The notes beneath the pieces were generated by a model, which did not search any database, was not told the DNA's origin, and worked only from the letters and a program-made list of their open reading frames with translations. The position numbers were made by a program, and so were the translations under genes. A DNA stretch of 63,025 nt, the filler included, from Sphaeroforma arctica JP610 (Eukaryota): the NCBI RefSeq assembly GCF_001186125.1. It is 4 parts of 2 records of this genome, joined end to end, with 100 filler letters (N's around TTAATTAATTAA, not from the genome) between each part and the next. Parts side by side here need not be neighbours in the genome. Positions count along the whole stretch, not along the records: positions 1 to 17,905 come from NW_014040549.1; 3 more parts are not named here. The stretch is one strand, 5' to 3'. Shown one piece after another: positions 2 through 60,989 of this stretch. The stretch's first letter is position 1. Each line of letters begins with the position of its first letter.

Positions 2-442
2 ATATGCGTTGCGTTGATTGATCCTTGTTCAGAAATTTCATGTATATCCGGTCGCTTTGCATTAATGAAAGATATCGAAAGGAGAACACAAACAACTCAC
101 CTCATTTTAGCCGATGATAAAACTTCTAAGTGTGATACCATGGCCACAGATGTTAAAATCTCCATGGCCGATGATAGGAGTATCACCACCCAAGCTGTGA
201 TAGTTAAGATGTCACAGAAGTACGACATTATAGTCGGAATGAGCGATTTTCTCACTCTGGGCATAACCGTAACTGGTCTACCAAACAACATATATCCATT
301 AAAGGATCAGTCAGACGATAACTGTCTGAATCCATATAAGCCCCCGTCAGATACAGCTAAGGCATTAATACCTGACTTTGCGAACAAAATCATGGATCTG
401 ATTCTAGTTAATAAGAAGACAAAGATCACATATCAGCCTTGA
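2..442 (+). pseudogene. Retroviral-type aspartic protease of element A
   Basis: ICVALIDPCSEISCIS ... YDIIVGMSDF; DPC in place of D(S/T/P)G. Confidence 0.7.
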
Positions 443-452
443 CTTAACCAAG

Positions 453-1732
453 GTGGACTTTACACAGTTAAAGTGTCCCTCAAGGAACTATGTATCCTGG
501 AGATTCGAGTCTGTGGTAAAAGAACAAGTTGAGAAATGGCTAGCAGATGGAGTGATAGAAATTAACTATCAACAGACGCCAGTTAACTTGGCGCTGCTAG
601 CCGTAGACCAACATAACTCTGACGGATCGTTTAAGAAAGTCAGAGTATGTTTAGATACAAGTCCAATACATAAATCATTGCCGACTCATAGCTTTCACTT
701 ACCTCGTATTAACGAGCTACTGCGAAGGATGGAAGGTGCTACAGTATTTACAACTATAGACCTTACACAAGGATACCATCAAATGCAGGTATATGAACCA
801 CACCGTAAATACTTTAGCTTTACGTGGAAAGGTAAATAATACCGGTTCAGAGGTTCACCTTTCGGGTTGCACTCTTTACCAGCATTCTTCTAACAAGTAC
901 TGGAAGAAATGTTTGCAGACATGTCTAACGTGCAAGTATACATAGATGACATAGTCATCTTTTCCAAAACTAATGGCGAACACGCCGCATTAATCAGACG
1001 AGTCCTTAAGAGACTCAACGAGCAAAACTTCAAGATTAACGAGAATAATGTCACTTCGCCATGAGCGAAATACAGCTCCTAAGCTACCGAATATCTGGGG
1101 AAGGTATTAAAATCGACCCCGGTAAGGTAGAACACCTGTTAGATTGGCGAACACCAACTACAGGAAGAGATGTTAACAGCATGTGTGGGTTTGTAAACTT
1201 CTTTTCAGATGGAGTACCTCACTTGGCTGACTACCTTAATCCTTTTGGACACTTAAAATGTCTTAAAGGCAAACTAGAAGACTTGTGGACTAAAGAGTGT
1301 GATGACGCATTTAAAGCGCTCAAACACGCAGTCCAGCAAGCCCCTGTTGTACAGGGACCAGTCGATGGCGTGCCGTTTGAAATAGCAACGGACGCCTCCG
1401 ACTTAGCCTTAGGAGGAGTATTATATCAGGTTATAGATAGCAAACCTATATATATACAATTCGTTAGTCGGGCAATGAATGCTTCACAGTTGAATTACCT
1501 ACCTGTGAAACAAGAGTTATTAGCCATAGTGGCAGCTCTAACACACTTCCGAGATTACTTATACGGAACAGCATTTACGCTGATGTGTGATCAGAAATCT
1601 CTTCAATATATGAAAGAGATGAAACCCGACTCGCAATTACTGAGTCGCTGGCATGATACAATATCAAAGTTTCATTTTGATATAAAACATCTGCCAGGAA
1701 TACATAACCATTTACCGGATGTGTTATCACGC
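453..1732 (+). pseudogene. Reverse transcriptase and RNase H of element A (in-frame stops, frameshift near 1050)
   Basis: ORFs 453-839 and 1061-2230 plus the intervening frame YRFRGSPFGL..QVYIDDIVIFS. Confidence 0.93.
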
Positions 1733-1769
1733 TTCGTACCGGACTCTAATAAATCCGTACGTGAGCTAC

Positions 1770-2175
1770 TAGCCACTGACAATCCCAGTGGGTTTAAACT
1801 GGCTCAAAAGATATTTGGGCCATATACCATAGATATGTTTGCTGCGCATCATAATGCACAATTATCGAATTACAGGACTTTGAATCATCCTTTGGGAGAT
1901 GCCTTTCAACTAGACTTCCCCAAACATAATGCGTGGGCTAATCCACCATGGCAGTTAATTGCCCAATTACTAACTCATGTTCATATACATAAAGCTACCA
2001 TCACGTTGTGTTGCCCATTACGGAGTAAAGATCCGTGGCCCAGTAAATTAATAAGAATGATACAATGCGAGCCAATATATTTAGATAGGGAAGTAGATAC
2101 TTTCCTATATCAGGGTACCCGAGCTGTCCAGAAGACGCCCTGGAGACATATTATATTATGTCGTATAGGTCCCAT
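1770..2175 (+). CDS. Dam-like N6-adenine (amino) DNA methyltransferase domain of element A, in frame with RNase H
   Basis: FGPYTIDMFAAHHNAQL (D at 1832) ... DAF ... NAWANPPWQLI (NPPW 1940-1951) ... LCCP..PW ... DTFLYQG..KTPW..IG; matches the DIRS1/phage-Dam-type pattern. Confidence 0.88.
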
Positions 2176-2251
2176 TGGAACAACCAAATGGACCCCTTCT
2201 GAGACCTTCCTTAACAAGGTCAAAGAATAGGAGATTCCGCTCTACACTAGA

Positions 2252-3660
2252 TTGAACGTTAAGCACTTCAAAAGCAACACAGCACCTGAAGTCTGTGCGC
2301 AAGAAATAAAATCTACTAGTGCCACTGTCAAGAAGCGTCAGTCTCTAGCTAGGACTCTGTTTAATAACATAAAGTCCAAGCCCGAAGTCTTTCAGACACT
2401 CTTACTAAAGGGATTAATGAAAGATAATCCCGAAGTATATACACATATAATGCGAGTATTAAATAAGTCAAGTGTATCAAACGCAATTGAGCGCACTCAT
2501 GACACTCATGCAAAAGAAGGACAGGAGTCTGGATACACTGCAGACTTAGAGACCACGCAAGTGGATCCTCAACACCCTACCTTTATACTGGAGGAGCTTA
2601 ATGATAAAAACATTATTGCTTGGCTGACGCAAAACCATAAGCTGAAGCACCAGAACGTAGTAGACGCACTTAAAGATGCTAAGCGAAATGGGATCGCGCA
2701 CCCTCAGCTGGCAACTTTAGTTGACAGAATATATCAGTCATGTACAGACTGTGATCTCATTCAGATCAAGCGCTATGGGTTCGCACCACTTAATAGTGTG
2801 ACCGAAGATGTTCCATGGCGCAGGGTCATCATTGATCTGGTTAACCTGCCCACGTCCAAGCACTCAGGCGACCGTTATGTATGCCACTTCTTTGATGTGG
2901 CGTCACGGTTTAACTTGCTCTATCCATTAAAGGATAAGAATACGCAGACCGTGGCAGAATCATGTTGCCAAGTCTTTGCTGACCACGGGTGGCCAGGTAT
3001 TATGTGCACTGATAACGGTAGTGAGTTCTGCGATGACGTAATGGAATCGCTAGTACTCGTATCAGGCATATGCCATAAGAGAGGTGTGCCATATAAGCCG
3101 CAACGCAAGGCGCGAATGAAACGCGCCATAGAAGACTCGAGTTCTTCTTGCGTACTGCATTAACGGATGATGCAGATGATTGGCCGTAACACCTTAAGTG
3201 GGTACAACCACAGATGAACGAGTGTGTTGATCCGGTTACAGGAACTACACCCGCTCGCTATTTTTGTGGCAGATATAGTGAGTTACAAATCCCCTTTAAC
3301 AAGGACGAACCTGATCACCGTGAGCTACCCTGGCTAGAGAAGGTACAACGTATTTATAACGTTGTATATCCTTGCTTGCGAGAAATACGCAATATAGCCT
3401 TATTAAAAAGGCGAAAGCGTTGAAACACTACCAAGAAGATAGCAGAGTATCAGGTTGGTGACAGAGTTAACATCCGTCAACGTAATTCCGATGCTAATGT
3501 ATTAACATTTAAATGGATAGGTCCATATATAATCTCTGTAGCAGACACTAAAAGTGGAACGTACGAGGTAAATAAACCAGATGGTTCTAGTGCGCATAAT
3601 ATAGGCACAAGTCGTATTCCGACTACAGAGATTATACTCGCAAGAAGACATGACTCTAAT
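2252..3660 (+). pseudogene. DDE integrase of element A (Zn finger, core, GPY/F), frameshifted near 3110
   Basis: HKLKH..CTDC, PWRRVIIDL, FFDVASRF, TDNGSEF, PYKPQ, KWIGPY. Confidence 0.9.
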
Positions 3661-4205
3661 GCCCCTCTTGATCGTTCTTAACTTAAAGACATTTTATGGA
3701 GAACGGATAAGGAAAGCTATACATACTATCGTACACGCTTTATAGACGGTACAATAGCTGAGTTGACTTCAGATGCTTTCGATAATCAAGACGATTTGAA
3801 ATTTAATCGAAAATGGCATAAACGCCTGCATAAGTCACGAGCTGAAAAAGATAGCATGTTTCCATCGTCTGAAGGCACGGAAGTTAAAACTTATCCGCCT
3901 ACAGCAATTATCCCGAGCTTTAATGCTCATCCTTTATATATGCTTAAGACACTGAAGCGCAACAAACGTCCAGTCGACCAACATNNNNNNNNNNNNNNNN
4001 NNNNNNNNNNNNNNNNNNNNNNNNNNNNNNNNNNNNNNNNNNNNNNNNNNNNNNNNNNNNNNNNNNNNNNNNNNNNNNNNNNNNNNNNNNNNNNNNNNNN
4101 NNNNNNNNNNNNNNNNNNNNNNNNNNNNNNNNNNNNNNNNNNNNNNNNNNNNNNNNNNNNNNNNNNNNNNNNNNNNNNNNNNNNNNNNNNNNNNNNNNNN
4201 NNNNN

Positions 4206-4619
4206 GCCAACCAGATGTGCCAGTCTAATGAAGGCTAAGTCGGTAATTCTTGATAAGTGGCAAGTTATTGGTTAAGACAAGAACTAAGGACATCAAGAGT
4301 ATTTTTATTCTTCTTCTAAAGATAGGATTTAATGAGTCTCTCAGATTCGCCCCAACGAAACATACCATAGTTTCTAATAGAGCGACAACGAAACACTAAA
4401 TAAAATCCCTTCGGCGGAAACAGTACTGAGAGAATTATATATAGGCAATGTCTCAGCCTCACAATCCCTCAGAGTATTGATGTTTTCACGAGGCATACCT
4501 AACTTTACTAAAAGTCTCATTTCGTTGATTTACTTTGATATTTTCACGATACTTAGAATTTACCTGCGCGTTTATTTACTATAAGGCGTTAATATCGCCT
4601 TATTATACCGAATCTTACA
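4206..4619 (+). repeat. 3' portion of LTR, probably the 3' LTR of element A
   Basis: Close reverse-complement match to 36260-36686; ends ...ATCTTACA; its 5' part falls in the N-gap. Confidence 0.8.
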
Positions 4620-4819
4620 CCAAGATTTCTCGCTGACACGACATCACCACCATCGCCGCCTGTTCTTCGTTCTGACACCAACCCCACTCGACCGGTCGAT
4701 GTTCAAATTTACGACAACTATTATGCTAATCAAGGTCATTGCAGTCGTAAAATGACATTACAACTGGCTAAACGCGACGGCGACAAACTAACATTTCCGC
4801 CACCAGTTAATGTTAAAAC

Positions 4820-5235
4820 CGAAAATTGTATGCTTGATAGTATCGATTGGACATAGGCAATGGCATTTCTTGAGTGTACTCCCACCATAGACAGTTTAGG
4901 CATTTGTGTATCGAAATCTAATGCGCGACTACCCTGGTTCTTCGGTCCTGATAGGGGGGGGGAGGTGGGGGCGTACTCTACAGTGACTGGAGCAAGCCCG
5001 ATCCCATTCTCGAAGACGCGTACGCTAACCCCGGCTGGAGCCTCATAAAAGTCATTGTCGAACTCATTTTTCGACTTGGTATTACGCTTACCTTCGTAGT
5101 TCCTCTACGACCTTGTGCTACATGATGGACCATGCTTATCAGCCGCATTCGACGACCTCCATACATCATACCAAGCACAGCAAGTCGGTGTACCTTCATG
5201 GACATTCCCCCTGGTCCTCATCATGGGCCCTCCTA
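4820..5235 (+). pseudogene. Dam-like MTase domain inside Copia element B (frameshifted)
   Basis: NCMLDSIDW*AMAFLECTPTID..SKSNARLPWFF, shift at G-run 4954-4962, then SDWS..DAYANPGWSLIKVIVELIFRLGITLTFVVPLRPCAT*WTML (NPGW 5027-5038), shift, then QQVGVPSWTFPLVLIMGP; collinear with the Gypsy MTases. Confidence 0.75.
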
Positions 5236-5562
5236 CCACCACTGTTGTCCCAGTTGAACATCTCCAAGCCGCAAATACATATACCTCGCCAATCCTGAAT
5301 TCGACAAGCATTGCCCTATCTGCACAGAGGGCAAAATAAAAGTCAAAGCAGTCCCACATCATAATCCTGTATCTGTCTATAGACCAGGCAACCGATTTCA
5401 TGTGGACCTCCAAGGTCCCGTGCCTGAGTGTCATTTCGGATTTCGATATGCACTCAATATGATTTGCGATGGCTCACGCTATGGTCTACATATGCTTCTC
5501 AACGACAAGGAAAATATGGCCCCTCATGGTGACAACATTACCAACTCTAAACACCTTGCCAG

Positions 5563-6530
5563 TGTAAAATCAGCGGGTTCATATAGTAGAAGCACATGTT
5601 ATCGTATATTATAAACGCATGAACGTCTAAACGCTATTACGTTTATAAAACCTGGTATACGTTGAAACACAATTGTCGATAATTGTATCTGTATAATAAT
5701 CAAATAATCTAATTATAGATATATTGAATTTACAGAAAACAGACAAACAAATAATCTAATTTGGATATTTGGAATTACAATTGTATACGACAGAGGCCGA
5801 GAGACTCTGTTAATATTGATATGATGGTTTTTCTACAAAGATATGTTTTCCATCAGAATATAGGGATACAACACTGGGTGAGTCTCAGGTGGTATTGACA
5901 CTTGATGACACATGCTGTATTACCAAATACTCTGAGAGCGCGAGATAGCCTACTGAGAAATGGGACATGAAAATGACCCCCCCTAGCCGGCCAACTAGAT
6001 GTGCCCGTCTATGCCTTCAATGGGATGGAGAGCTAGGTACCATGTGATGGGGTATAGGTACAGACATTTAACTGTACCATCATGGTGTTTTGGATTTCTT
6101 TTATTTTTCTTAAGTTGGACTTCGAGTTATTTTATTTGTAATTGCGATTGGGAGGTAGTTTCAAGGCATTGTAGAAGGAAGTACCATGCATTCAATGAAA
6201 TGAAGTATACTTAGAGTTCTTTTTATTGGTAATTGTGATTGGGAGGTAGTTTCGAGGCATGAAATAATATTGAAGGAAATATCATGCATCCAATGAAATG
6301 AAATCTGTTCTTAGTTATTGACACCGAATAAATCTAGACCGAAGTATTGAGTGATTAGAGCGGAACCATATAGATAATAGTCTCAGTCTGACATCCCCCA
6401 ATCTTTAGCTCAATACCAAGGGTTGAAGCTAAACTTAAATTACATTGTGCAAATTTACTTTGAAATCTTACTTTTCTTTTACGTTAACTTATTGAAACCG
6501 ATAGTCAGCCTGGTTAGTCTGACTTCTACA
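5563..6530. mobile_element. LTR-like insertion (about 970 bp) splitting the Copia B integrase core
   Basis: TGTAAAATCAG...CTGACTTCTACA imperfect inverted ends; AT-rich and non-coding; internal duplication about 6124-6303; no matching TSD. Confidence 0.55.
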
Positions 6531-7906
6531 TACAAGCTACTTTCTCAAAGTAACAATGTTCGATCTAACCCTCCGTACACACCGCAAATGAATGCCAAGG
6601 TTGGAAGTAGTCATAAAGTTCTTGAATGTTATAGTCCGTTTATTCCTACTAGGCGCTGGCATGCCCTGTAGACTATGGTCTGATGCTAAGAAATGAGCCG
6701 ACCGTAATCGCAATGAAACACCCGGCACTGATTCAATTATTCGTACACCATCTGAGATCTTGCACCAAGTGACCCCTACTCGGTATTATCGTGCTCGATT
6801 CGGCTGCGTTGCTCTATACAATATGGAAGGCAAACGCAAAGACAAGCACAAATATGGCACTCAATGTCATCACGGTGTACTAGTCGGACGAAGCGCCACA
6901 GGCACTGAGGACACATATTTTTATCCAAAGTCTTGAGACGCAACGCAGAATATCATCACGCAATGTTCAGTTTCTCTCTGACGATAAACCACAGTGGTCA
7001 GCTAATGGAAAAGAGCGACTCGATCCAATACTCTCCAAAGTCATGCCATACAATCGGATTGGCATACTCAGGCGACCGTTCCCACTGTGATTGTTCCTCA
7101 TGTCTTAGACACGCCTCCTTCTGGCTTTCTATTCCTCAAACTCCGGTTACCACCACGGCAATATTTCTCAACACAGCCTGCGGCGCCCACCGTAATTATA
7201 TCTCTACCACCTACTCCGATGCCTATCATTCCACCGATGCCACCAGCTACCCTTTGCTTCCAGACAATAATCAGCATTCTGATTCCAAACCTGATCTTTC
7301 TCTTGTCGCAAATAAGCACTCTACGGAATTACCCGATATTATTGATTTGTCTGACAACGACGAAGACTCCAAATATTACGAAGCTATCCAGGAAAACACT
7401 AACTACGTGGCTACGACTGCCACTGTCGTAGACCCAGCACCAATTCGTGATGAGATGACAATGCTGGAAGCCATCTCTCTCTTTGATGACAGCGTTCTCA
7501 AGTCCACATCCTTGGCTACGGAGTTTGACGATTGGGATCAATGGCAAGATGCTATTCAGATGGAATTCAAAGCACATCAGTTGAATGATTTGGCTGACAT
7601 TGTTCCCGTGTCTGCTATTCCTCAGGGTACCAAAGGTATCCATTCTAAGTATGTTTTCGTCCAAAAATTTAACGAAACTGGTAAGCCTATCTGCTACAAG
7701 ATACGAATGTTTGCCATAGGAGACGAACAATTGGAAGGTGACTCTTATACACACACGTATTCTTCTGCCATCTCTGCCACGGCTCTTCGATTATTCATCG
7801 CCAAAGCAAGCAGCCGCCAAACCATGAATACATCACTTCGATGTTGATAATGCATTTTTTTAATTCCAAACTTGACACGGCAGTTTACATGATTCTGCCG
7901 GAAGGA

Positions 7907-8150
7907 TGTAGTAAGTTACGCTCGAATAACTATATCTGAACGTTCAGGGAGACGTTGCGTCTTTATTATATTTTTGGATAACTGACTAAGACTCTCTAGT
8001 GAGTCAAGTGTTCGGTCTCTATAGGGATCGAACACAAAAGTAGTTTATCAGATCCTGTGATATAGTAACCATAAACTAAGTTTATCAGATCATATAATCT
8101 AATATATATACACTAGGTTTATCAGATCGTATGATCTGATAAACCTGACA
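7907..8150. mobile_element. Solo-LTR-like insertion in the Copia B RT
   Basis: TG...CA ends; similar to LTR 46501-46730 (AATAACT.TATC..AACGTTC..AGGGAGACGTTG and GTTTATCAGA..TCTGATAAAC palindrome); RT frame resumes after it. Confidence 0.65.
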
Positions 8151-8239
8151 TGTTTTGAAATTGAAATGCGGCCTCTACGGCTTTAAAGTAGCTGTGAGAC
8201 TTTTTGTGATACCCTCATCTTCGATGACTTCAAGCAAAT

Positions 8240-9348
8240 TTGAGGCTGTTGTGTGGTTCGTTGATGCTATTGAGTAGTTTTTTTGAGGTTGTTGTGTGGT
8301 TGGTTGATGCTATTGTGTAGTTGGTCGAGACTGTTGTGTAGTTGGTTGATGCTATTGTGTAGTTGGCTTAAGCTGTTGTGTTGTTCGTTGAGTCTGTTGT
8401 GTGGTTAGTTGAAGCTGTTTTGTGGCTTGTTGAAGACGTTGTGTGGTTGGTGGAGGCTGTTGTGTCGTCAATTGATGCTATTGTGTAGTTGGTTGAGGCT
8501 ATAGTTGTGTTGTTGGTTGAGTCTGTTGTGTGGTTGGATGAAGCTGTTTTGTGGCTGGTCGAGACTGTTGTGTGGTTGGTCGAGGCTGTTGGGTGGTTGG
8601 TTGAGGCTGTTGTGTAGTCAGTTAATGCAATTGTGTAGTTGGTTGAGGCTGTTGTGTAGTCAGTTAATGCAANNNNNNNNNNNNNNNNNNNNNNNNNNNN
8701 NNNNNNNNNNNNNNNNNNNNNNNNNNNNNNNNNNNNNNNNNNNNNNNNNNNNNNNNNNNNNNNNNNNNNNNNNNNNNNNNNNNNNNNNNNNNNNNNNNNN
8801 NNNNNNNNNNNNNNNNNNNNNNNNNNNNNNNNNNNNNNNNNNNNNNNNNNNNNNNNNNNNNNNNNNNNNNNNNNNNNNNNNNNNNNNNNNNNNNNNNNNN
8901 NNNNNNNNNNNNNNNNNNNNNNNNNNNNNNNNNNNNNNNNNNNNNNNNNNNNNNNNNNNNNNNNNNNNNNNNNNNNNNNNNNNNNNNNNNNNNNNNNNNN
9001 NNNNNTATTGTGTAGTTTTTTTTAGGTTGTTGTATTGTTTGTTGATGCTGTTGGGTGATTGGTTGAAGCTGTTGTGTGGTTGGTTGAAGCTGTTGTGTGG
9101 TTGGTTGAGGCTGTTGTTTGGTTGGTTGAGGTTGTTGTGCGCTCGGTTACCGATAGACTTTTTTGCGGTCGGTTGAGGATGTTGTATAGTTGGTTTATAC
9201 TATTGTATTGCTGGTCGAGACTGTTGTGTGGTTGAAATATGCTATTGTGTAGTTGGTAGAGGCTGTTGTTTGCTTGGCTGATGCTATTGTGTAGTTTTTT
9301 TAGGCTGTTGTATTGTTTGTTGATGCTATTGGGTGATTGGTTGAAGCT
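8240..9348. repeat. 21-bp GT-rich minisatellite (consensus about GGTTGAGGCTGTTGTGTGGTT) spanning an N-gap
   Basis: Directly visible 21-nt periodicity on both sides of the gap. Confidence 0.9.
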
Positions 9349-9956
9349 CAGAGTAGAGGTAAAACGGACCTGATAAGTTACTGTTCTCAGATATTAAAGT
9401 ATCTTTTAAAGTGTTTTAAGTTTTAAGTGAATAGTTGTCATTTATTTGATTCGAGTCCCTGCTTTCATATGCATTGGACTCGTAATTCTTGAGCCATCAA
9501 AAAACACCCCTTATGGTGAAATCCAATCCAAAGGCAGCGTCGCCACGTCTTCAACTGATCATGGCTTCCATTATAATCTTTGGCCTTATACGTTTAGATT
9601 GTACTTCTATATTTAGGGATGCCCCTATGGCTATCAGATATTTTCCATATTGATGATTCCGTACTCCCGTCACGTCGGCTCCGAGATTAATTTCCATCTG
9701 TAATATTTCTGTGTCCCTTTCTGAGTTTAGATTCTCTCCTTGGTTGATGATGGGATAAACCTGTTGAGCCTCTGGTGTTTGACCGTAGTTTTATGCTTGG
9801 TAAACAATCCTGGTTTTCTGTGATCAATATTCGATACGGTCATTACCGCCGTGTTCCGAGTGGATAGTGCTGTTCGTGCTAGCAGCGTACGTAGCGAATT
9901 CGTCGCTGATAAGGGTGCTTCATTTAACAATCACACAAGTTTTAACGTGCCCCTGC

Positions 9957-10287
9957 TGTGGCATTTAGGGACCAGATTATCAAAAAGCCAGTCCAAATCC
10001 CAAAACCAAGGATTATCAAATACTTAGTTTTGGATCCAGGATCCAATATTCTGATATTAGCGTGATCAGAAATCTAGTGGGATTACCGATAGACAATACC
10101 GGGACTCTCGCGCGTGAGAGAAGCACTTATGTATGAATCGAGTCTAGTGTAGAAAACACCAAACACAAATAAAGACTCAATGCGAGTGCTTCAGCCTAAG
10201 ACTTTTACCTAGCTGAGAGATCTGCACTCGAGAAGAGGTCTATTGTTACCTTTGGTCGTACCTTGTAAGCTACTCTCAAACTCTGCA
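9957..10287 (+). mobile_element. Solo LTR (331 bp) related to the LTR of element D, inserted in the integrase of element C
   Basis: TG...CA; collinear similarity with 38318-38637; flanks CTGC/CCGC (4-bp TSD with one mismatch); integrase frame continues across it. Confidence 0.82.
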
Positions 10288-11695: not shown

Positions 11696-12130
11696 TAGGC
11701 CCCACGAAGGTGTGCGATAAGCGTGAATGGCCACGGCGGTTTACCCTCGATATGCCTGCCTCTACGGGGATATGTGTCGTCACGGTGTGAGATGACAAGT
11801 GACGTTTCCAGGACGAGGCGAAAGACGACAGATAACTAGACGGCCGATGGCCAGAAGGAAACGCATGCGACCACGGACGTAAAAATAACGTCCGGAACTC
11901 GAACACGAAGGAATCCACCGATGTCCGTTCAGGGCAAGGTCATCTAGCAGTGTTTATGTTGGATCCTGGACGGAGTACGCGTCCTGAACACATGCGCCCG
12001 TGCCGTCCTTTGTAGATCGTGAGGACGTGGTCCTCATGGCTGGCGAACAGCTCAGAGTCGAATGGGGCCCATATTTGTTGCTACACATCAATCCATAGAT
12101 CATTGATAGCCCAACTAGTGTGGTCCAAAA
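11696..12130 (-). pseudogene. Degenerate Dam-like MTase domain of element C
   Basis: DHTSWAINDLWIDV*QQIWAPFDSELFASHEDHVL (ELFAS 12039-12053), DAYS, HC*MTLP* at the NAWANPPW position (11929-11952), ACVSFWPSAV*L, DDTYPRRGRHIEGKPPWPFTLIAHLRG (GKPPW 11731-11745). Confidence 0.78.
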
Positions 12131-41600: not shown

Positions 41601-42549
41601 ATAAACATCAAATGAGTGCAAGTGTATGTAGATGACATAGTCATTGCAAGTCTTACAGAAGAAGAACATCGTAAGACAGTTCGTAAAGTAATCTAGCGAC
41701 AGAATGGAGCAGACTTCCGTCTCAATCACAAGTGTGCCTTCGCGGTCAAAGTGGTCAACATTCTAGGTTTGAAAGTCACCACACAGGGACTCAAAGCAGA
41801 TCTTGAAAATTAGAAAAGGATGATGGACTGGCCACTACCCAGAACAAAAATAAATCTACACAAAGCGGTGGGACTAGCAAATTACAAGCGCGACCATGTC
41901 CCCAACTTTGCCCACACAACTAAACACTTCCGAAACATCATGAAAGAAAAATTGAATCATAACATATCCATGTTATGGACTCCGGAACTCAAAAAGAAGT
42001 GGGAAGAACTCAAAGAAGCCATCGCCTATTCAGCGACATTAGCATACCCTGCTGATGGGGTACCGTTTCAAATAATGAATGATGCTTGTGACTATGGCAT
42101 AGGAAAATGTTTATGTTTTATTTCAAGTCATCGATGGGGTTAGAAGCGACATTCTCTACTTCTCGAAAGGCTTGAATCCAACACAACAACGATATGGCAG
42201 AAATACTAATGAGCTACTAGCACTCGTATACAGCCTGGAACAGTTCTCCGACTATATCAAAGGAGGGGACATAACACTGTGGACAGATCACAAAGCACTC
42301 ACGCAAATGAACAGTCAACAGACGTTACACCCAATGCTAGCCAAATGGATAGCAAAAGAATTACACCACCACTTCTCCATCATACACGTCCCAGGCAAGG
42401 ACAACCAGATGGCAGACAGGTTGTCGCGTCTACATGAAAACACTTCGAATACTAAACTTCGAAGGTACTACAAGAAGCGAATGAAACAACACAATATAAC
42501 CAAGAGTATATCACATAGGAACCGAATATATCCACAACTATATCAGCCA

Positions 42550-42990
42550 TAGACTGAATGTTACACTCCAGATTCTACCAAGAAGCTGAACGAGAATGTT
42601 ACACTCCAGATTCTACCAAGAAGCTGAACGACGGTTTGGGAAATTCACAGTGGATCGATTTGCATCGGCACACAATACACACACAGATAAGTACTACACC
42701 AAAATTCATAACGCGCTACAACAAAAGTGGGCGCAGGAAGTGAATGCATGGGCGAACCCACCATGGAAACTCATACCTGATATCCTTGACGAAATCATTG
42801 AAGAGGCAACCAGCATCACGATATGTGCACCATACTACCCCAATGCAACGTGGTTTCCAAAATTCTTGTCTTTACTAGAAGAAGACCCGATGCTAGTGGA
42901 AAAGACAAACAATACTTTCCTCAAAGAAGGCAAGAAAGCTTGTGGCAAGACCCCATGGGGTGTCACATTAGTCGTAAAGATAGGAGTGAA
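42550..42990 (+). CDS. Dam-like MTase domain of element D
   Basis: D*MLHSRFYQEAERRFGKFTVDRFASAHN..NAWANPPWKLI (NPPW 42755-42766)..ICAPYYPNATWF..NTFLKEG..GKTPW..KIG; a 38-bp tandem duplication (42556-42631) shifts the frame at its start. Confidence 0.9.
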
Positions 42991-44188
42991 GTGTCCATAT
43001 CTTGACTCAACGCGGGAACAACGTGCCATACACGTTGCAGCATCAGAACCAGTTCACTCTGGAGATGCACCACAGGCAACAGAATACGAGACACGTGTCA
43101 ACCTCATCGAGCAATACCACAAATTGAGAATTTACACTCTTGAGGAACCGATACATAAGTTGGAAGCAATGGACATGGTTGGCCTGATATCCAACAACAT
43201 GTACACAAGTTCATTGACGGATGCATACCATGTCTCAAAAATAAGATACACAAAAAAGGAATTCCATCCCTTACAATCAATCACAGCCACATTTCCAGGC
43301 GACAGAGTCCAAGTGGACACCATAGGGCGGGCCACTATTGGATTCCAACAGAGGGCACACATATGTGTTAGTATGGCTCGATGTACACTCATCCGTATGT
43401 CATATTACTCCGATGATGGACAAATGAGCGGCTACTATAGCACGCACGCTAGTACCAATCATGTGTGACCATGTATTTTCACAAATCATACAGACTGACC
43501 AAGGCACTAAATATTAACAACATGCTTCCGAAAGTTGTTGAACAAGCGTCAATGCAACACCTAGTCTCTCGGCCGTGTCAACCTAAAGTCTTAGGTGCGA
43601 ACGAACGATCACACAGAGATCTCATGCCACTGTTACGAAAATTCGTTGAGCAATACCCAGGTAACTGGTGTTCACGACTTCATTCGTAGAGATGGGTCAC
43701 AATCTGCGTACATCAAGAAGGCACAAGTCACCACGATTTAACGTGTACTTTGGTCGCAGACAGAATCAACTAACGGACTACAACGAGCCAGTGACCGCAC
43801 CCAGTACAACAGTATATTGGGAAGAGCGACTGCAGAATCTAGAAGAAGCCATCAGGCCACAACTAGACAATAATGTTGTACAATATCAAGAGAAGATGCG
43901 CGCAGCATACGGTCAAAAATACCAAAAGAAATATGTAAACTTCCAGGAAGGGGACTTTGTCATGGTTCGCTATCAAGGTGAAATGAACAAGTTAATAGCA
44001 CCAAATGGCGGACCATACAAAGTAGTACACAGGGAGGGCAATGGGTATTTTTTGTCTGTAGCCTTGATGGGAATAAAACCCCCGAATATCCTGACTCGAT
44101 CAGTGATGAGCTACTTGGACTTGTAAAAAGGACCAGTGCTCCGGAAGCATTTACTTCCAATAATCACGCACAACAAAACGAGAAGACT

Positions 44189-44330
44189 CAGTTCTCCTCG
44201 ATAGTCGACGACAGGCCGTACATCCGAGGTGATAGATCCCAGGAGTACCTACTGCAATGGACAGATGGGGAGCGTACCTGGACGCATGAATCAGACATCA
44301 CAGATGCTGATGTCATTGCAACATACCGTC
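44189..44330 (+). pseudogene. Chromodomain at the C-terminus of the element D integrase
   Basis: QFSSIVDDRPYIRGDRSQEYLLQWTDGERTWTHESDITDADVIATY. Confidence 0.75.
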
Positions 44331-44794
44331 AACGCCATAGATGCAAACGAAGGCAGTCAAGGCCAAAGAAGCCGGCGACGACGAGCACTGATGAAAGATC
44401 AGCGAGCAACAGAAAGCGCACAACTAAGCAAGTCTCACTGATACCACGGGACACTTCCACTTTTCTCGCCTTGAAGCATGCTCACCAGAGGGACAAGGAC
44501 CAAAGACTCGGTTGTAGAGCCACCATTGAGAAGCGCTTTCCTAAGCCAAGTTGAGATCAACCAAGAGCACCGGTCAAGACTGACTAAGATGAGCGTGGTA
44601 GAGAACTCCTGTCATAGTATAAAAGCCAATATCCGTCTGTGAATTAGATTACCGATATGCAAAAGTATGTACGAGCACATCAAATTAATGAGGCACAGAG
44701 GATGAGGAGTTTTTGCTTAAAAATGACAAGAAAGTTATTAATGCATCAGGAATATTTACAAAACTCAAGAGATTGTACCGATATGCTAGTGACC

Positions 44795-45605: not shown

Positions 45606-46730
45606 AGTTGAAAAATTAACACTTTTGTCTATTCCTAGAGCTAGGTTGTTTTTCTTGTAATATTATATATCCTTGCCCCACTTACCGTAGGAGCAACAAT
45701 CCTATTTCTAAACCCGACTTCTTCTACGCACACTACTCCTTAGATCTTATTCGCTAACTATACTACTTCCATTTCTCTAACGCAATTTCTATTGAGCATC
45801 CTTTGACTAAAAATATTTCTAGAACAGGGTTCTAACTCGATATCTAGCCTACACTATCACCCTTACTGTTTGTCTCTACAACATATAATCACAAAACTAT
45901 ACTTCACAATCGTTTCTACTTAACTGATCGTCTGACTGGACCATCGTCTTGGCCATGTGGTCCTTCTGGTCCTGCTCATTTCGTTCTTGTACTTCTGATG
46001 CCTTCTCCTTTTCCGGTTACTCCTTAGGTTCGGTCGAGGGCTCCTTGGGTTCGGTCGTAGTGTCAATACCTGCCTCCGTTCTTGAAGTCCCAGTAAAGTT
46101 AGGTACCTGTCTAGGAAGCCTAAAGCGTTCGAGCTGTCTAGCCATATTGATTCTATTGCTGAAGCGTCCATTGTTCACCTCAGATTCCATTTGCTGATTC
46201 CATCGGACGTGCTGATCGTTCGGTCTCGGCGTCTCTTCCGATTCGCTGCCACTATTCGACATCAAGGATGGCATTGTGGCACTAGCGTCACTACTTGTGT
46301 ACCCGCTATCCTCTTCTACCGCATTCTGAAAGATGTCGACATTTTGCTGCGCCATCTTACTTTCTCTATTACATTCGATGTTTTCTTTCTTTGTTCGTCG
46401 TATTCTTATAGAAAAAATCTGATAAATTTCATTCAATTACTATAAAGTAGCTTATTCATTAATTACTAATAAGCTCACAACTTCCCTGGTAAGTTAAAAA
46501 TGTGGTAAACGAGCGCTTCAATAACTGTATCGCAACGTTCTCCTCTCATAGAGAGGGAGACGTTGTCCATTTATTAGTAATTGAAAATTAATGACTCTAA
46601 TAATGAGTCATAAGTCATGTGCTGTGATAGTCAGCAAAAACCAAGTTTATCAGAATATTCTGATAAACTGTAAAAACTATAATAAAACTAAAATAAACAA
46701 ATAAACCTAAGTACTTGTATTCTGACCACA
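45606..46730 (-). mobile_element. 5' end of an LTR retrotransposon E (LTR 46501-46730 plus gag-like ORF 46017-46436), adjoining Copia F
   Basis: TGTGGT...ACCACA termini; similarity to 7907-8150; gag-like ORF downstream on the minus strand. Confidence 0.65.
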
Positions 46731-59097: not shown

Positions 59098-60552
59098 CTA
59101 TTCCCGGATATAGAAAATAAGAGCCGAATTCTTCTGCAAAATCTCCGTGTGTTTCTCCGGCACATCCGTTCCAAAGTCAGATATCGTATCATCATCGAAC
59201 AGAATCGTCTTATTCTCCAGTGAGCTAAAACATGTGTAATGTCCTGAGCGCATCTCGGCGCCCAGATGAGTTACTACCGACACTGGCGAGTAGGTGACTA
59301 ACGCGTGTTTCTTCTCACTAGCCTGCCTCGGTAGCAACTGTGTGGGTAGTTCACAGGTAATGTTTCCGATACGCACGGGTCGCTGTGACTTGCCCAGTTC
59401 GCCGGTAGTCATGTCCAACTGCGTGCGCACAATATGCACAATCAGGAACGTCGGCATACGGAAGAACTTGTTGATTCGCGATGTGTCTGGGTGCGATGTG
59501 TTGCACGCCCCACACCGCCACCCATCCAACGGCTCGGAGCTGACCGTCTCATTAAACAGCGCCTGCACAGTGGTCTCCGACGTCTCACTCCCCACAGACA
59601 GACTGAGAATGTTATTTATATCCGGACGTACCTGAGTGACCACCCGGCAGTTACCGCAATAGTACGCGGTGATGGTCTGGTACGCCAGACTGGCCGCAAA
59701 CTGCGCTGCCCCCACAGAGAAGCGCTCGTTCCATTGTAGGTCTGCCATCACCTCGTGTACTGTCGCCGTGCCTTTAATCAGATCGTCAAAGGTATCAAAG
59801 TTGATTAGTCTCTCCTCAGATGTGGCCGCGACCGCTTCGAGCGTCTGTAGTACAAATGTCAGCCACTCGTGCACATCCTGCTGTTGCTGCTTAACCCCAG
59901 ACTTGGGCTTCTGCACATTGGACTCGGGGAAGGCCGACATCGCCACCCGGAACGCGTCCATGCACTTCTGTGGCTCGTCCTTGCTTTTGGCTTTCGCATT
60001 GTTGGCCAGGGATTCCAACAGCGGGTACAGCGTCTTCACCACGGGCTGTTTCTTAGCAACCGCAGGGTCGGTGGGCTCTCTGTGCGACAGCTGGGCCAAC
60101 AGAGGACGCAGCTTGCCGTTGAAGAAACTGTGCGCGAGGGCCTGGCTCACCGAGTTCATGAAGCACAGGTTCTGATTCTTCGCATTCGGCAAGCCAACAG
60201 GCACGGTGACTAACGGGCGCGTGTTCTTCTTCTCTCCCGCATTGCTGCCACGTGGGGTGGGGGGCCCTGGCGCAGGCGAGTTCTTTCCACTGCCACTGGT
60301 GGCACCGGAATCAAACGGAGATCTAAAATCGTAGGACAGTGCGGAACTACGGCGTCTCCCCAGTGAGGCGCGGCCGCCTTTGGCTGAGTTCTGTGTGGCG
60401 GTGAGTTGATCGTCCAGGTCTGTTAGTAGAGTCTTCATGTCCACAAACCGGTCAGGCTGACGGTTAATTTCTAAAAATGTCTCTACCGAATCCTGCCACG
60501 CCCGTTGTGGGGTGCCCACCGCGTGGTAATCACGGGTCATCACTCGGTTGAA
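59098..60552 (-). CDS. Ubiquitin-specific protease (USP/UCH, peptidase C19) catalytic exon; probable upstream exons to about 62055
   Basis: Cys box GLPNAKNQNLCFMNSVSQAL, QQQDVHEWL, CxxC pairs, His box HLGAEMRSGHYT, FDDD. Confidence 0.93.
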   Translation of the reverse strand, partial: FNRVMTRDYHAVGTPQRAWQDSVETFLEINRQPDRFVDMKTLLTDLDDQLTATQNSAKGGRASLGRRRSSALSYDFRSPFDSGATSGSGKNSPAPGPPTPRGSNAGEKKNTRPLVTVPVGLPNAKNQNLCFMNSVSQALAHSFFNGKLRPLLAQLSHREPTDPAVAKKQPVVKTLYPLLESLANNAKAKSKDEPQKCMDAFRVAMSAFPESNVQKPKSGVKQQQQDVHEWLTFVLQTLEAVAATSEERLINFDTFDDLIKGTATVHEVMADLQWNERFSVGAAQFAASLAYQTITAYYCGNCRVVTQVRPDINNILSLSVGSETSETTVQALFNETVSSEPLDGWRCGACNTSHPDTSRINKFFRMPTFLIVHIVRTQLDMTTGELGKSQRPVRIGNITCELPTQLLPRQASEKKHALVTYSPVSVVTHLGAEMRSGHYTCFSSLENKTILFDDDTISDFGTDVPEKHTEILQKNSALIFYIRE

Positions 60553-60989
60553 CTGTGGAGATAAACGTGGGGTTGGTTAGCAACAAAGCATGCAAAATAT
60601 GGGATCGCAAATCATGTGCGGTGTAGACATGGAAATGATCCGGGGTATTTTAATGCGGATGATCGCGTTTTTTAAGTGAAGAAAGCATCGGATAGCAATC
60701 AGAAATTTTGTCATATTTCCCTTAAACAATGTGCAATCTTCGAGCCAGGCGGCACACATATCACACTGTAGCAAATAACAAACTGATGCTGGTCTGAGAA
60801 TTATTCAAATGTTACATAGAAATGTCGAATTGCTAGTAACGTGGGCTGTGAATCAATTCGACATAATCTAACTAGAGTTAGGAGGACATAGTTAGATAAA
60901 TACGAATCCAAGACATACATATCAATACACGATAAATGGAGATGAATATGTAAGCATATTTGAAATGAAGTATATGGATACAATTGTAC

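What the first reader, a model, noticed from the sequence alone, without database searches (positions are those of the whole stretch)
4700..5330. Ty1/Copia element with the same MTase, apparently inserted inside the integrase HHCC zinc-binding domain
Seen (not evident in the ORF track because of two frameshifts): YYANQGHCSRKMTLQLAK (4719-4772) resembles the Copia WHxRLGHxS motif. It is followed by about 140 aa of MTase (TID..NARLPWFF; DAYANPGWSLI; TFVVPLRP..*W; GVPSW..MGP), then CPICTEGK and the core HVDLQGP. RT lies downstream, which is Copia order. Inference: a second LTR superfamily acquired the same MTase family at a different position, separating HH from CC. That implies convergent capture or exchange between co-resident elements, and selection to tether an MTase to integrase.
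Basis: partly seen in the sequence, partly recalled or inferred. Interest (0 to 1): 0.9.

Follow-up and report, generated by a model that had tools for sequence, protein, structure and literature searches.

The report
Copia integrase carrying an adenine methyltransferase
A broken Copia-type jumping gene, and a distant second copy from a marine protist, both carry a DNA adenine-methyltransferase-type domain inside the zinc-binding start of their integrase, a pairing I did not find described for this class and one that would likely let the element mark its own new DNA copies.

Summary
Confirmed. Bases 4719-5560 are a dead Ty1/Copia integrase with a Dam-type (retrotransposon-clade) adenine methyltransferase between the His-His and Cys-Cys halves of the zinc finger. 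There are three frameshifts and two stops, not two frameshifts. A second copy, Sphaeroforma arctica SARC_09551, has protease-like region, HH, Dam and CxxC in one predicted protein. It is collinear with the window and 36-56% identical region by region, so the fusion is inherited in a family. The two Copia Dams group together (100/98); pairing the relic with either testable Gypsy Dam of the window is rejected (p-AU about 0.005). A 2026 preprint describes Dam only in DIRS and Gypsy-like elements and never mentions Copia. Limits: no intact copy found, donor unresolved, no dN/dS. Both copies read NPxW rather than NPPW, so catalysis is unproven. The scan earlier noted Gypsy-Dam and Copia with cytosine methyltransferase on other DNA, but I found no Copia-Dam note. 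Verdict: new variant of a known kind.

The parts
4206..4619 (.). High-copy repeat that abuts the relic on the left; gag and protease of the Copia copy are missing here
   Evidence: Very many contigs laid, loose ends pile up behind 4619/4620 in all 4 runs
4704..4829 (+). His-His half of the integrase N-terminal zinc-binding region; first His position is Tyr (4722-4724), second His at 4737-4739
   Evidence: Ungapped 44-residue match to the sister's FHRSEGH region, z 11.6, 0 of 5000 shuffles; sister region matches Copia gag_pre-integrase clusters by features
4830..5235 (+). Dam-type N6-adenine methyltransferase domain, decayed: stop 4854-4856, damaged SAM-loop motif, frame change at G-run 4954-4962, NPGW at 5027-5038, stop 5123-5125, frame change near 5185
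   Evidence: 10 of 16 columns invariant in five other Dams are kept
5236..5311 (+). Linker of about 25 residues with a third frame change near 5280
   Evidence: Collinear with sister residues about 329-354
5312..5562 (+). CxxC-GK half of the zinc finger and first half of the integrase catalytic core (HVDLQGP at 5399)
   Evidence: 41% over 66 residues to an ordinary Copia protein P0003, E 7.5e-10 in the window; 48% over 79 to S. arctica SARC_06079
5563..6532 (.). Later insertion(s): patchwork of high-copy repeats interrupting the integrase core
   Evidence: Loose ends before 5563, many short diverged contigs up to 6530-6532
6533..6933 (+). Second half of the integrase core (PPYTPQMN at 6570) and Copia-like C-terminal region (RFGCVALY, GVLVGRS), frameshifted
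   Evidence: Translation; motif likeness is recalled; no Pfam hit
7440..7860 (+). N-terminal third of a Copia-type reverse transcriptase, cut off; the rest and RNase H were not found downstream
   Evidence: RVT_2 E 1.6e-6, 28.4 bits, under the curated 31.6, profile positions 6-75 of 244; no RT or RNase H family in 106 downstream frames

Best explanation
This is a dead copy of an old Ty1/Copia family whose integrase carries a Dam-type adenine methyltransferase domain between the His-His and Cys-Cys halves of its zinc-binding region, and that domain likely travelled with the integrase to methylate the element's new DNA copy. Shown: the order HH - Dam - CxxC - core - RT in this window, and protease-like region - HH - Dam - CxxC in one predicted protein of a diverged sister. 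Inferred: the domain was captured once from another retrotransposon (DIRS or Gypsy), by recombination at the spot where the CxxC normally sits, and was kept in frame while the two lineages diverged. Inferred and untested: because it lies inside the integrase rather than at a domain boundary, it would stay on the mature integrase, enter the particle and the pre-integration complex, and put 6mA on the cDNA or the insertion site, which the host's own 6mA system would then maintain as open chromatin (the model that the 2026 preprint proposes for Gypsy Dam elements). I put the architecture at about 0.9 and the active-methylase mechanism at about 0.45.
For: Sister P0002 (S. arctica SARC_09551) matches query residues 2-134 in one stretch; it has Pfam Dam E 1.2e-5 and Dam-cluster structural neighbours; its first 182 residues retrieve Copia-type clusters (Pol_BBD named in 5 of 10 structure rows, gag_pre-integrase by features). 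All four window pieces are collinear with it. Identity by region: HH 14 of 39, Dam start 14 of 38, Dam core 31 of 72, Dam end plus linker 16 of 38, linker plus CC 15 of 27, so the insert is as conserved as the HH part. First-His to CxxC distance is 200 and about 197 residues against 30 in an ordinary Copia. The Copia Dams are one side of a 100/98 branch; relic plus Gypsy 1 or Gypsy 2 is rejected, p-AU 0.0059 and 0.0046. The sister keeps DLFA and 12 of 16 invariant Dam columns.
Against: Both copies depart from the NPP triplet (NPGW, NPIW) that 6 of 6 other rows with the motif keep. Only 1 sister covers the Dam; no full-length copy was found. The sister is a gene model whose DNA I could not see, so small predicted introns could hide breaks, and its last 20 residues match an unrelated stretch of the window. 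The preprint found no 6mA gain when retrotransposon Dams were expressed in E. coli. Pairwise likeness of the sister's protease region to P0003 is not significant and Pfam finds neither Pol_BBD nor gag_pre-integrase directly. The join of the two core halves across the repeat patch is plausible but weak by alignment (348 of 2000 shuffles as high), and no contig bridges it.
Confidence: 0.6

Rival explanations
1. The fusion is real and was maintained, but the domain no longer methylates. It serves as a nucleic-acid or SAM-binding module on the integrase, for example to hold the cDNA ends or to steer integration to 6mA-marked chromatin.
For: Two independent departures at the third position of the catalytic triplet (G and I for P) while the rest of the fold signature is kept; no activity for any retrotransposon Dam in E. 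coli in the preprint.
Against: Asn, first Pro and the aromatic residue are kept in both copies, and the sister keeps the SAM-loop motif DLFA. From my own recall, the first Pro and the aromatic residue make the key adenine contacts in Dam-type enzymes.
Confidence: 0.25
2. A one-off recombination put Dam into an ancestral Copia and crippled the zinc finger. The lineage spread for a while, perhaps helped in trans by normal Copia elements, and the domain was a passenger.
For: All copies seen are broken or partial; no second contig of 80% likeness or more lay on 4706-5455 in 4 runs (contigs show presence, not absence); no relative outside S. arctica among 1.84 billion representatives at E 0.001 with a Dam part.
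Against: The two copies differ at about 60% of residues yet keep frame register, spacing and motif columns through the whole insert, which a neutral passenger would be unlikely to do.
Confidence: 0.12
3. The Dam stretch is a local nested fragment of one of the Gypsy-Dam elements in this window.
For: Three Gypsy-type Dam elements lie in the same 63 kb, and the relic is riddled with later insertions.
Against: A sister at another locus has the same junctions in frame; relic identity is 41% to the sister and 14-27% to the window's Gypsy Dams; topology tests reject pairing with Gypsy 1 or 2 (the third, most decayed Gypsy was left out of that test).
Confidence: 0.03

Closest known systems
DAM-LTR retrotransposons, ichthyosporean lineage (Fernandez-Moreno et al., bioRxiv 10.64898/2026.05.21.726589; whole main text read, supplements not seen)
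   Same: Same Dam family, fused in the pol polyprotein of an LTR retrotransposon; same host group (the paper names S. arctica); the window's own Gypsy elements fit that description.
   Different: All DAM-LTR lineages there are described as Ty3/Gypsy-like and classed by RVT_1; Copia and Ty1 occur 0 times in the main text. In the window's Gypsy elements Dam follows RNase H as a separate domain with NPPW; here it sits inside a Copia integrase with NPxW.
Dam-like methyltransferase of DIRS retrotransposons (passages of PMC5890265; preprint introduction)
   Same: Homologous domain with the same start (W-x-L), D-x-F-A, NP-x-W and P-x-W signatures.
   Different: DIRS elements use a tyrosine recombinase and carry Dam after RNase H; no DDE integrase.
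Ordinary Ty1/Copia pol (example P0003, an unnamed ENA protein with Retrotran_gag_2, Pol_BBD, rve)
   Same: Order protease - integrase - RT; CxxC-GK and H-x-D-x-x-GP core start; RVT_2-type RT.
   Different: 30 residues from first His to CxxC and no Dam, against about 200 with Dam here.
Retrotransposon-borne cytosine methyltransferases (SymbioLINE-Dnmt, SymbioDIRS-Dnmt3; PMC5890265, passages only)
   Same: Same theme of a retroelement carrying its own DNA-marking enzyme.
   Different: Unrelated C5 enzyme class; that paper says Symbiodinium Copia elements lack a DNMT.

Membership tests
Ty1/Copia | Integrase upstream of reverse transcriptase on the same strand | tested here: met
   Core at 5399-6600, RT at 7440-7860; the stretch between is contiguous in the window but no laid contig bridges the repeat patch
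Ty1/Copia | RVT_2-type reverse transcriptase | tested here: met
   RVT_2 E 1.6e-6, no RVT_1 hit; 28.4 bits is under the curated cut-off because only profile positions 6-75 remain
Ty1/Copia | Copia-type protease barrel and gag-pre-integrase region upstream of the core | tested here: met
   In the sister only, by predicted structure and model features (TM by query 0.43-0.49); direct Pfam and pairwise tests were blank; the region is missing from the window
Ty1/Copia | Compact HHCC zinc finger (about 30 residues from first His to CxxC) | tested here: not met
   200 and about 197 residues; this is the novelty, so the element is filed as a Copia variant
Ty1/Copia | Paired LTRs, primer-binding site, polypurine tract, target-site duplication | tested here: inconclusive
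   No LTR pair in 4200-9400; both ends are cut by other repeats
Ty1/Copia | Placement among Copia in an RT tree | not tested
   No reference Copia RT set could be fetched
Retrotransposon-clade Dam (PF05869) | Profile match over the domain | tested here: met
   Independent 4-sequence profile: sister 52.6 bits, relic 31.3, shuffles at most 8.8; Pfam on sister E 1.2e-5, 25.5 bits, under cut-off 28.1
Retrotransposon-clade Dam (PF05869) | SAM-loop motif D-x-F-A | tested here: met
   DLFA in the sister; damaged in the window copy
Retrotransposon-clade Dam (PF05869) | Asn-Pro-Pro catalytic triplet | tested here: not met
   NPGW (window) and NPIW (sister) against NPPW in 6 of 6 others with the motif; homologous domain, active enzyme not established
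Retrotransposon-clade Dam (PF05869) | 6mA transfer activity | not testable with these tools
   Not shown for any member in the preprint's E. coli assay either
DAM-LTR lineages of the 2026 preprint | Ty3/Gypsy-like organisation with RVT_1-type RT | tested here: not met
   RVT_2 and Copia order; works like a DAM-LTR but is not a member of the described lineages

The most novel reading that the evidence does not exclude
An ichthyosporean Copia lineage evolved an integrase-methyltransferase fusion enzyme: Dam is looped out of a still-folding HHCC zinc finger and writes 6mA on the cDNA or target site during integration itself, with a changed NPxW active site. It would be a further independent Dam capture, the first in Copia and the first inside an integrase domain.
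Probability: 0.3. Interest if true: 0.8.

Novelty: new variant of a known kind. Interest (0 to 1): 0.58.

Why it matters
The 2026 preprint argues that LTR retrotransposons repeatedly captured Dam to exploit host 6mA chromatin, but lists only Gypsy-like captures, and its RT tree used the RVT_1 family, which would not place Copia. A Copia capture in the same host group is an independent test of that idea across superfamilies. The position also narrows the mechanism: a Dam inside integrase cannot easily be released as a free enzyme, which points to action at the pre-integration complex and may bear on why isolated retrotransposon Dams showed no activity in E. coli. It also suggests that some 'orphan' Dams in such screens are Copia-borne.

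Tried and rejected
No whole genome was held, so copies could not be counted by tBLASTn. Word-based homologue searches found nothing new: 0 of 6 candidates, 0 of 640, only the query among 3690. Locus scans: 0 of 66, 0 of 7, 0 of 5, 0 of 7; one search gave 5 of 70, of which I read 4 (L001, L002, L003, L005) as DIRS-like from their frames, without a family scan; L004 was not inspected and was left out of the trees as a probable near-copy of L003. AlphaFold2 models of the sister were poor (mean pLDDT 30.7 and 42.1); fold searches on the better one gave no match at E 0.001 and best Z 4.4, so they are not used as evidence. No solved-structure hit for the best Gypsy Dam; no Rfam hit in 4000-10000. 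No run holding the stretch was on record as RNA. A first six-piece alignment was misaligned and not used. I considered the Dam remnant at 11707-12080 as a DIRS donor; its element reads as a third Gypsy type. Literature searches for a Copia-borne adenine methyltransferase (listings only unless stated) returned none; the library lacks most subscription papers, Repbase reports were not searchable, and the preprint's supplements were not seen.

Full report
Observation. One frame carries YYANQGHCS from 4719 and continues without a stop into the start of the methyltransferase, then past a TAG (4854-4856) to NARLPWFFGP. After a G-run at 4954-4962 a second frame carries DAYANPGW and TFVVPLRP up to a TGA (5123-5125). 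The first frame returns for GVPSW..MGP, and the second returns for CPICTEGK (5312) and HVDLQGP (5399). That is three frame changes and two stops. The breaks are real: one contig covers at least 4573-5592 with 0-1 other letters and no gaps in 4 of 4 runs laid. The same call shows a high-copy repeat ending at 4619/4620, a repeat patchwork at 5563-6532, and no second contig of 80% likeness or more on 4706-5455 (contigs show presence, not absence).

Is it a methyltransferase domain? Pfam misses the broken pieces but finds Dam (PF05869) in two Gypsy frames of the window (E 5.3e-6 and 1.9e-13). A profile from these two scores the relic, read with X at breaks, 24.1 bits against at most 4.8 in 2000 shuffles. 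A profile from four unrelated metagenome Dams gives 31.3 against 8.8.

Is the arrangement inherited? An exhaustive phmmer search of 1.84 billion representatives with the single frame 4964-5524 gave 3 hits. P0002 is S. arctica SARC_09551, 394 residues. It matches across Dam, linker and CxxC in one stretch, and separate comparisons add the HH region (32% over 102 residues, E 2e-14) and the Dam end (42% over 38, E 1e-7). It has Pfam Dam at E 1.2e-5 and Dam clusters among its structural neighbours (TM by query 0.54-0.61). Its first 182 residues retrieve Copia-type clusters: Pol_BBD meets the naming bar in 5 of 10 structure rows, and gag_pre-integrase and Pol_BBD clusters score 0.93 by features. 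Against this, direct Pfam and pairwise tests of that region were blank. P0001 (SARC_06079) is a third locus that begins at the CxxC, so it says nothing on Dam. P0003 is an ordinary Copia without Dam. So 1 of 3 hits covers the region and has the fusion. The host of the window is likely S. arctica or a close relative; this is inferred from these hits, not shown.

Anatomy of the junction. The first His lies 200 residues before the CxxC in the sister and about 197 in the window, against 30 in P0003. The HH regions of the two copies align without gaps (z 11.6); their likeness to P0003 is modest (18 and 57 of 5000 shuffles as high). The Dam begins (W-x-L, as in DIRS-like rows) almost exactly where the CxxC of an ordinary Copia would fall, and the sister has a lone Cys there (C-E-A-W) that the window lacks. 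A full CxxC-GK follows the Dam after about 25 residues. I infer recombination at the CxxC, perhaps with a short duplication; this was noticed after the fact and rests on two sequences. Whether the finger closes around the insert could not be modelled.

Origin. The two Copia Dams are 41% identical, against 14-27% between the relic and the window's three Gypsy Dams. They form one side of a 99/99 branch in 9 rows and 100/98 in 8 rows without the long third Gypsy. Trees forcing the relic with Gypsy 1 or Gypsy 2 are rejected (p-AU 0.0059, 0.0046). Neither a Gypsy 2 nor a DIRS-like sister for the pair is rejected (0.44, 0.26), so the donor is open. Identity is even along HH, Dam and linker (14/39, 14/38, 31/72, 16/38, 15/27), and the sister keeps 12 of 16 columns invariant in five other Dams. 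This suggests long maintenance as coding sequence but is not a selection test.

Copia identity. The core start matches P0003 (41% over 66). The core resumes after the repeat patch (PPYTPQMN, 6570), and an RVT_2 fragment follows (E 1.6e-6, under the curated cut-off). The rest of RT, RNase H and LTRs were not found.

Mechanism. Shown: domain order. Inferred: Dam stays on mature integrase, since it is inside it, and so reaches the cDNA and the target site. Borrowed from the preprint: 6mA seeded there is kept by host AMT1 and favours expression. Against activity: both copies read NPxW, where 6 of 6 other rows with the motif read NPPW, and the preprint saw no 6mA gain in E. coli. The window copy is dead. 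It is nonetheless present in RNA: runs X16 and X18 have unspliced contigs over 4536-5654 and 4536-5596, and the same runs show intron-type joints and no depth in 21 and 20 of 30 bins of a control stretch. Strand and level cannot be read from contigs; read-through from the repeat on the left is likely.

What is known. The preprint 10.64898/2026.05.21.726589 (whole main text read; supplements not seen) reports Dam in DIRS and in Ty3/Gypsy-like elements, including S. arctica; Copia and Ty1 occur 0 times. PMC5890265 (passages) mentions Dam only for DIRS. Other searches (listings) showed no Copia-Dam. Earlier notes of this scan cover a Gypsy-Dam and Copia with cytosine-methyltransferase-like domains in other genomes; none held all of Copia, adenine and methyltransferase.

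Verdict. Real, a new variant of a known kind: a further Dam capture, in Copia and inside integrase. Interest 0.58, held down by the recent description of the theme, the lack of an intact copy and the altered catalytic motif.

Noticed in passing
window 408-3984 (+): Gypsy-type element with RT, RNase H, Dam (NPPW intact, 1742-2227) and integrase (rve); fits the published ichthyosporean DAM-LTR type.
   Followed up: partly
window 42103-44554 (+): Second Gypsy-type Dam element (NPPW intact) with a weak chromodomain hit at its end (PF00385 E 0.0079, under cut-off). The preprint says the ichthyosporean lineage lacks chromodomains, so this deserves a check.
   Followed up: no
window about 11700-15800 (-): Third, heavily decayed element: zinc knuckle, protease-, RT- and RNase H-like stretches, then a Dam remnant at 11707-12080 that lacks the catalytic segment.
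   Followed up: partly
window 46515-46574 (+): Matches the last 20 residues of SARC_09551 at 75%, suggesting that the sister's integrase core is cut by a repeat also present here.
   Followed up: no
window about 20300-32890 (-): Multi-exon host gene(s) with long introns: ANAPC4 hit at 20304-20603 and spliced RNA contigs at 23354-24743 and 28604-32887.
   Followed up: no
window 8247-9390: 21-base tandem array, G+T-rich on the plus strand, spanning an assembly gap.
   Followed up: no
window 16709-16921 (-) and 59098-60576 (-): Mitochondrial carrier exon and an uninterrupted 491-residue ubiquitin-hydrolase frame.
   Followed up: no
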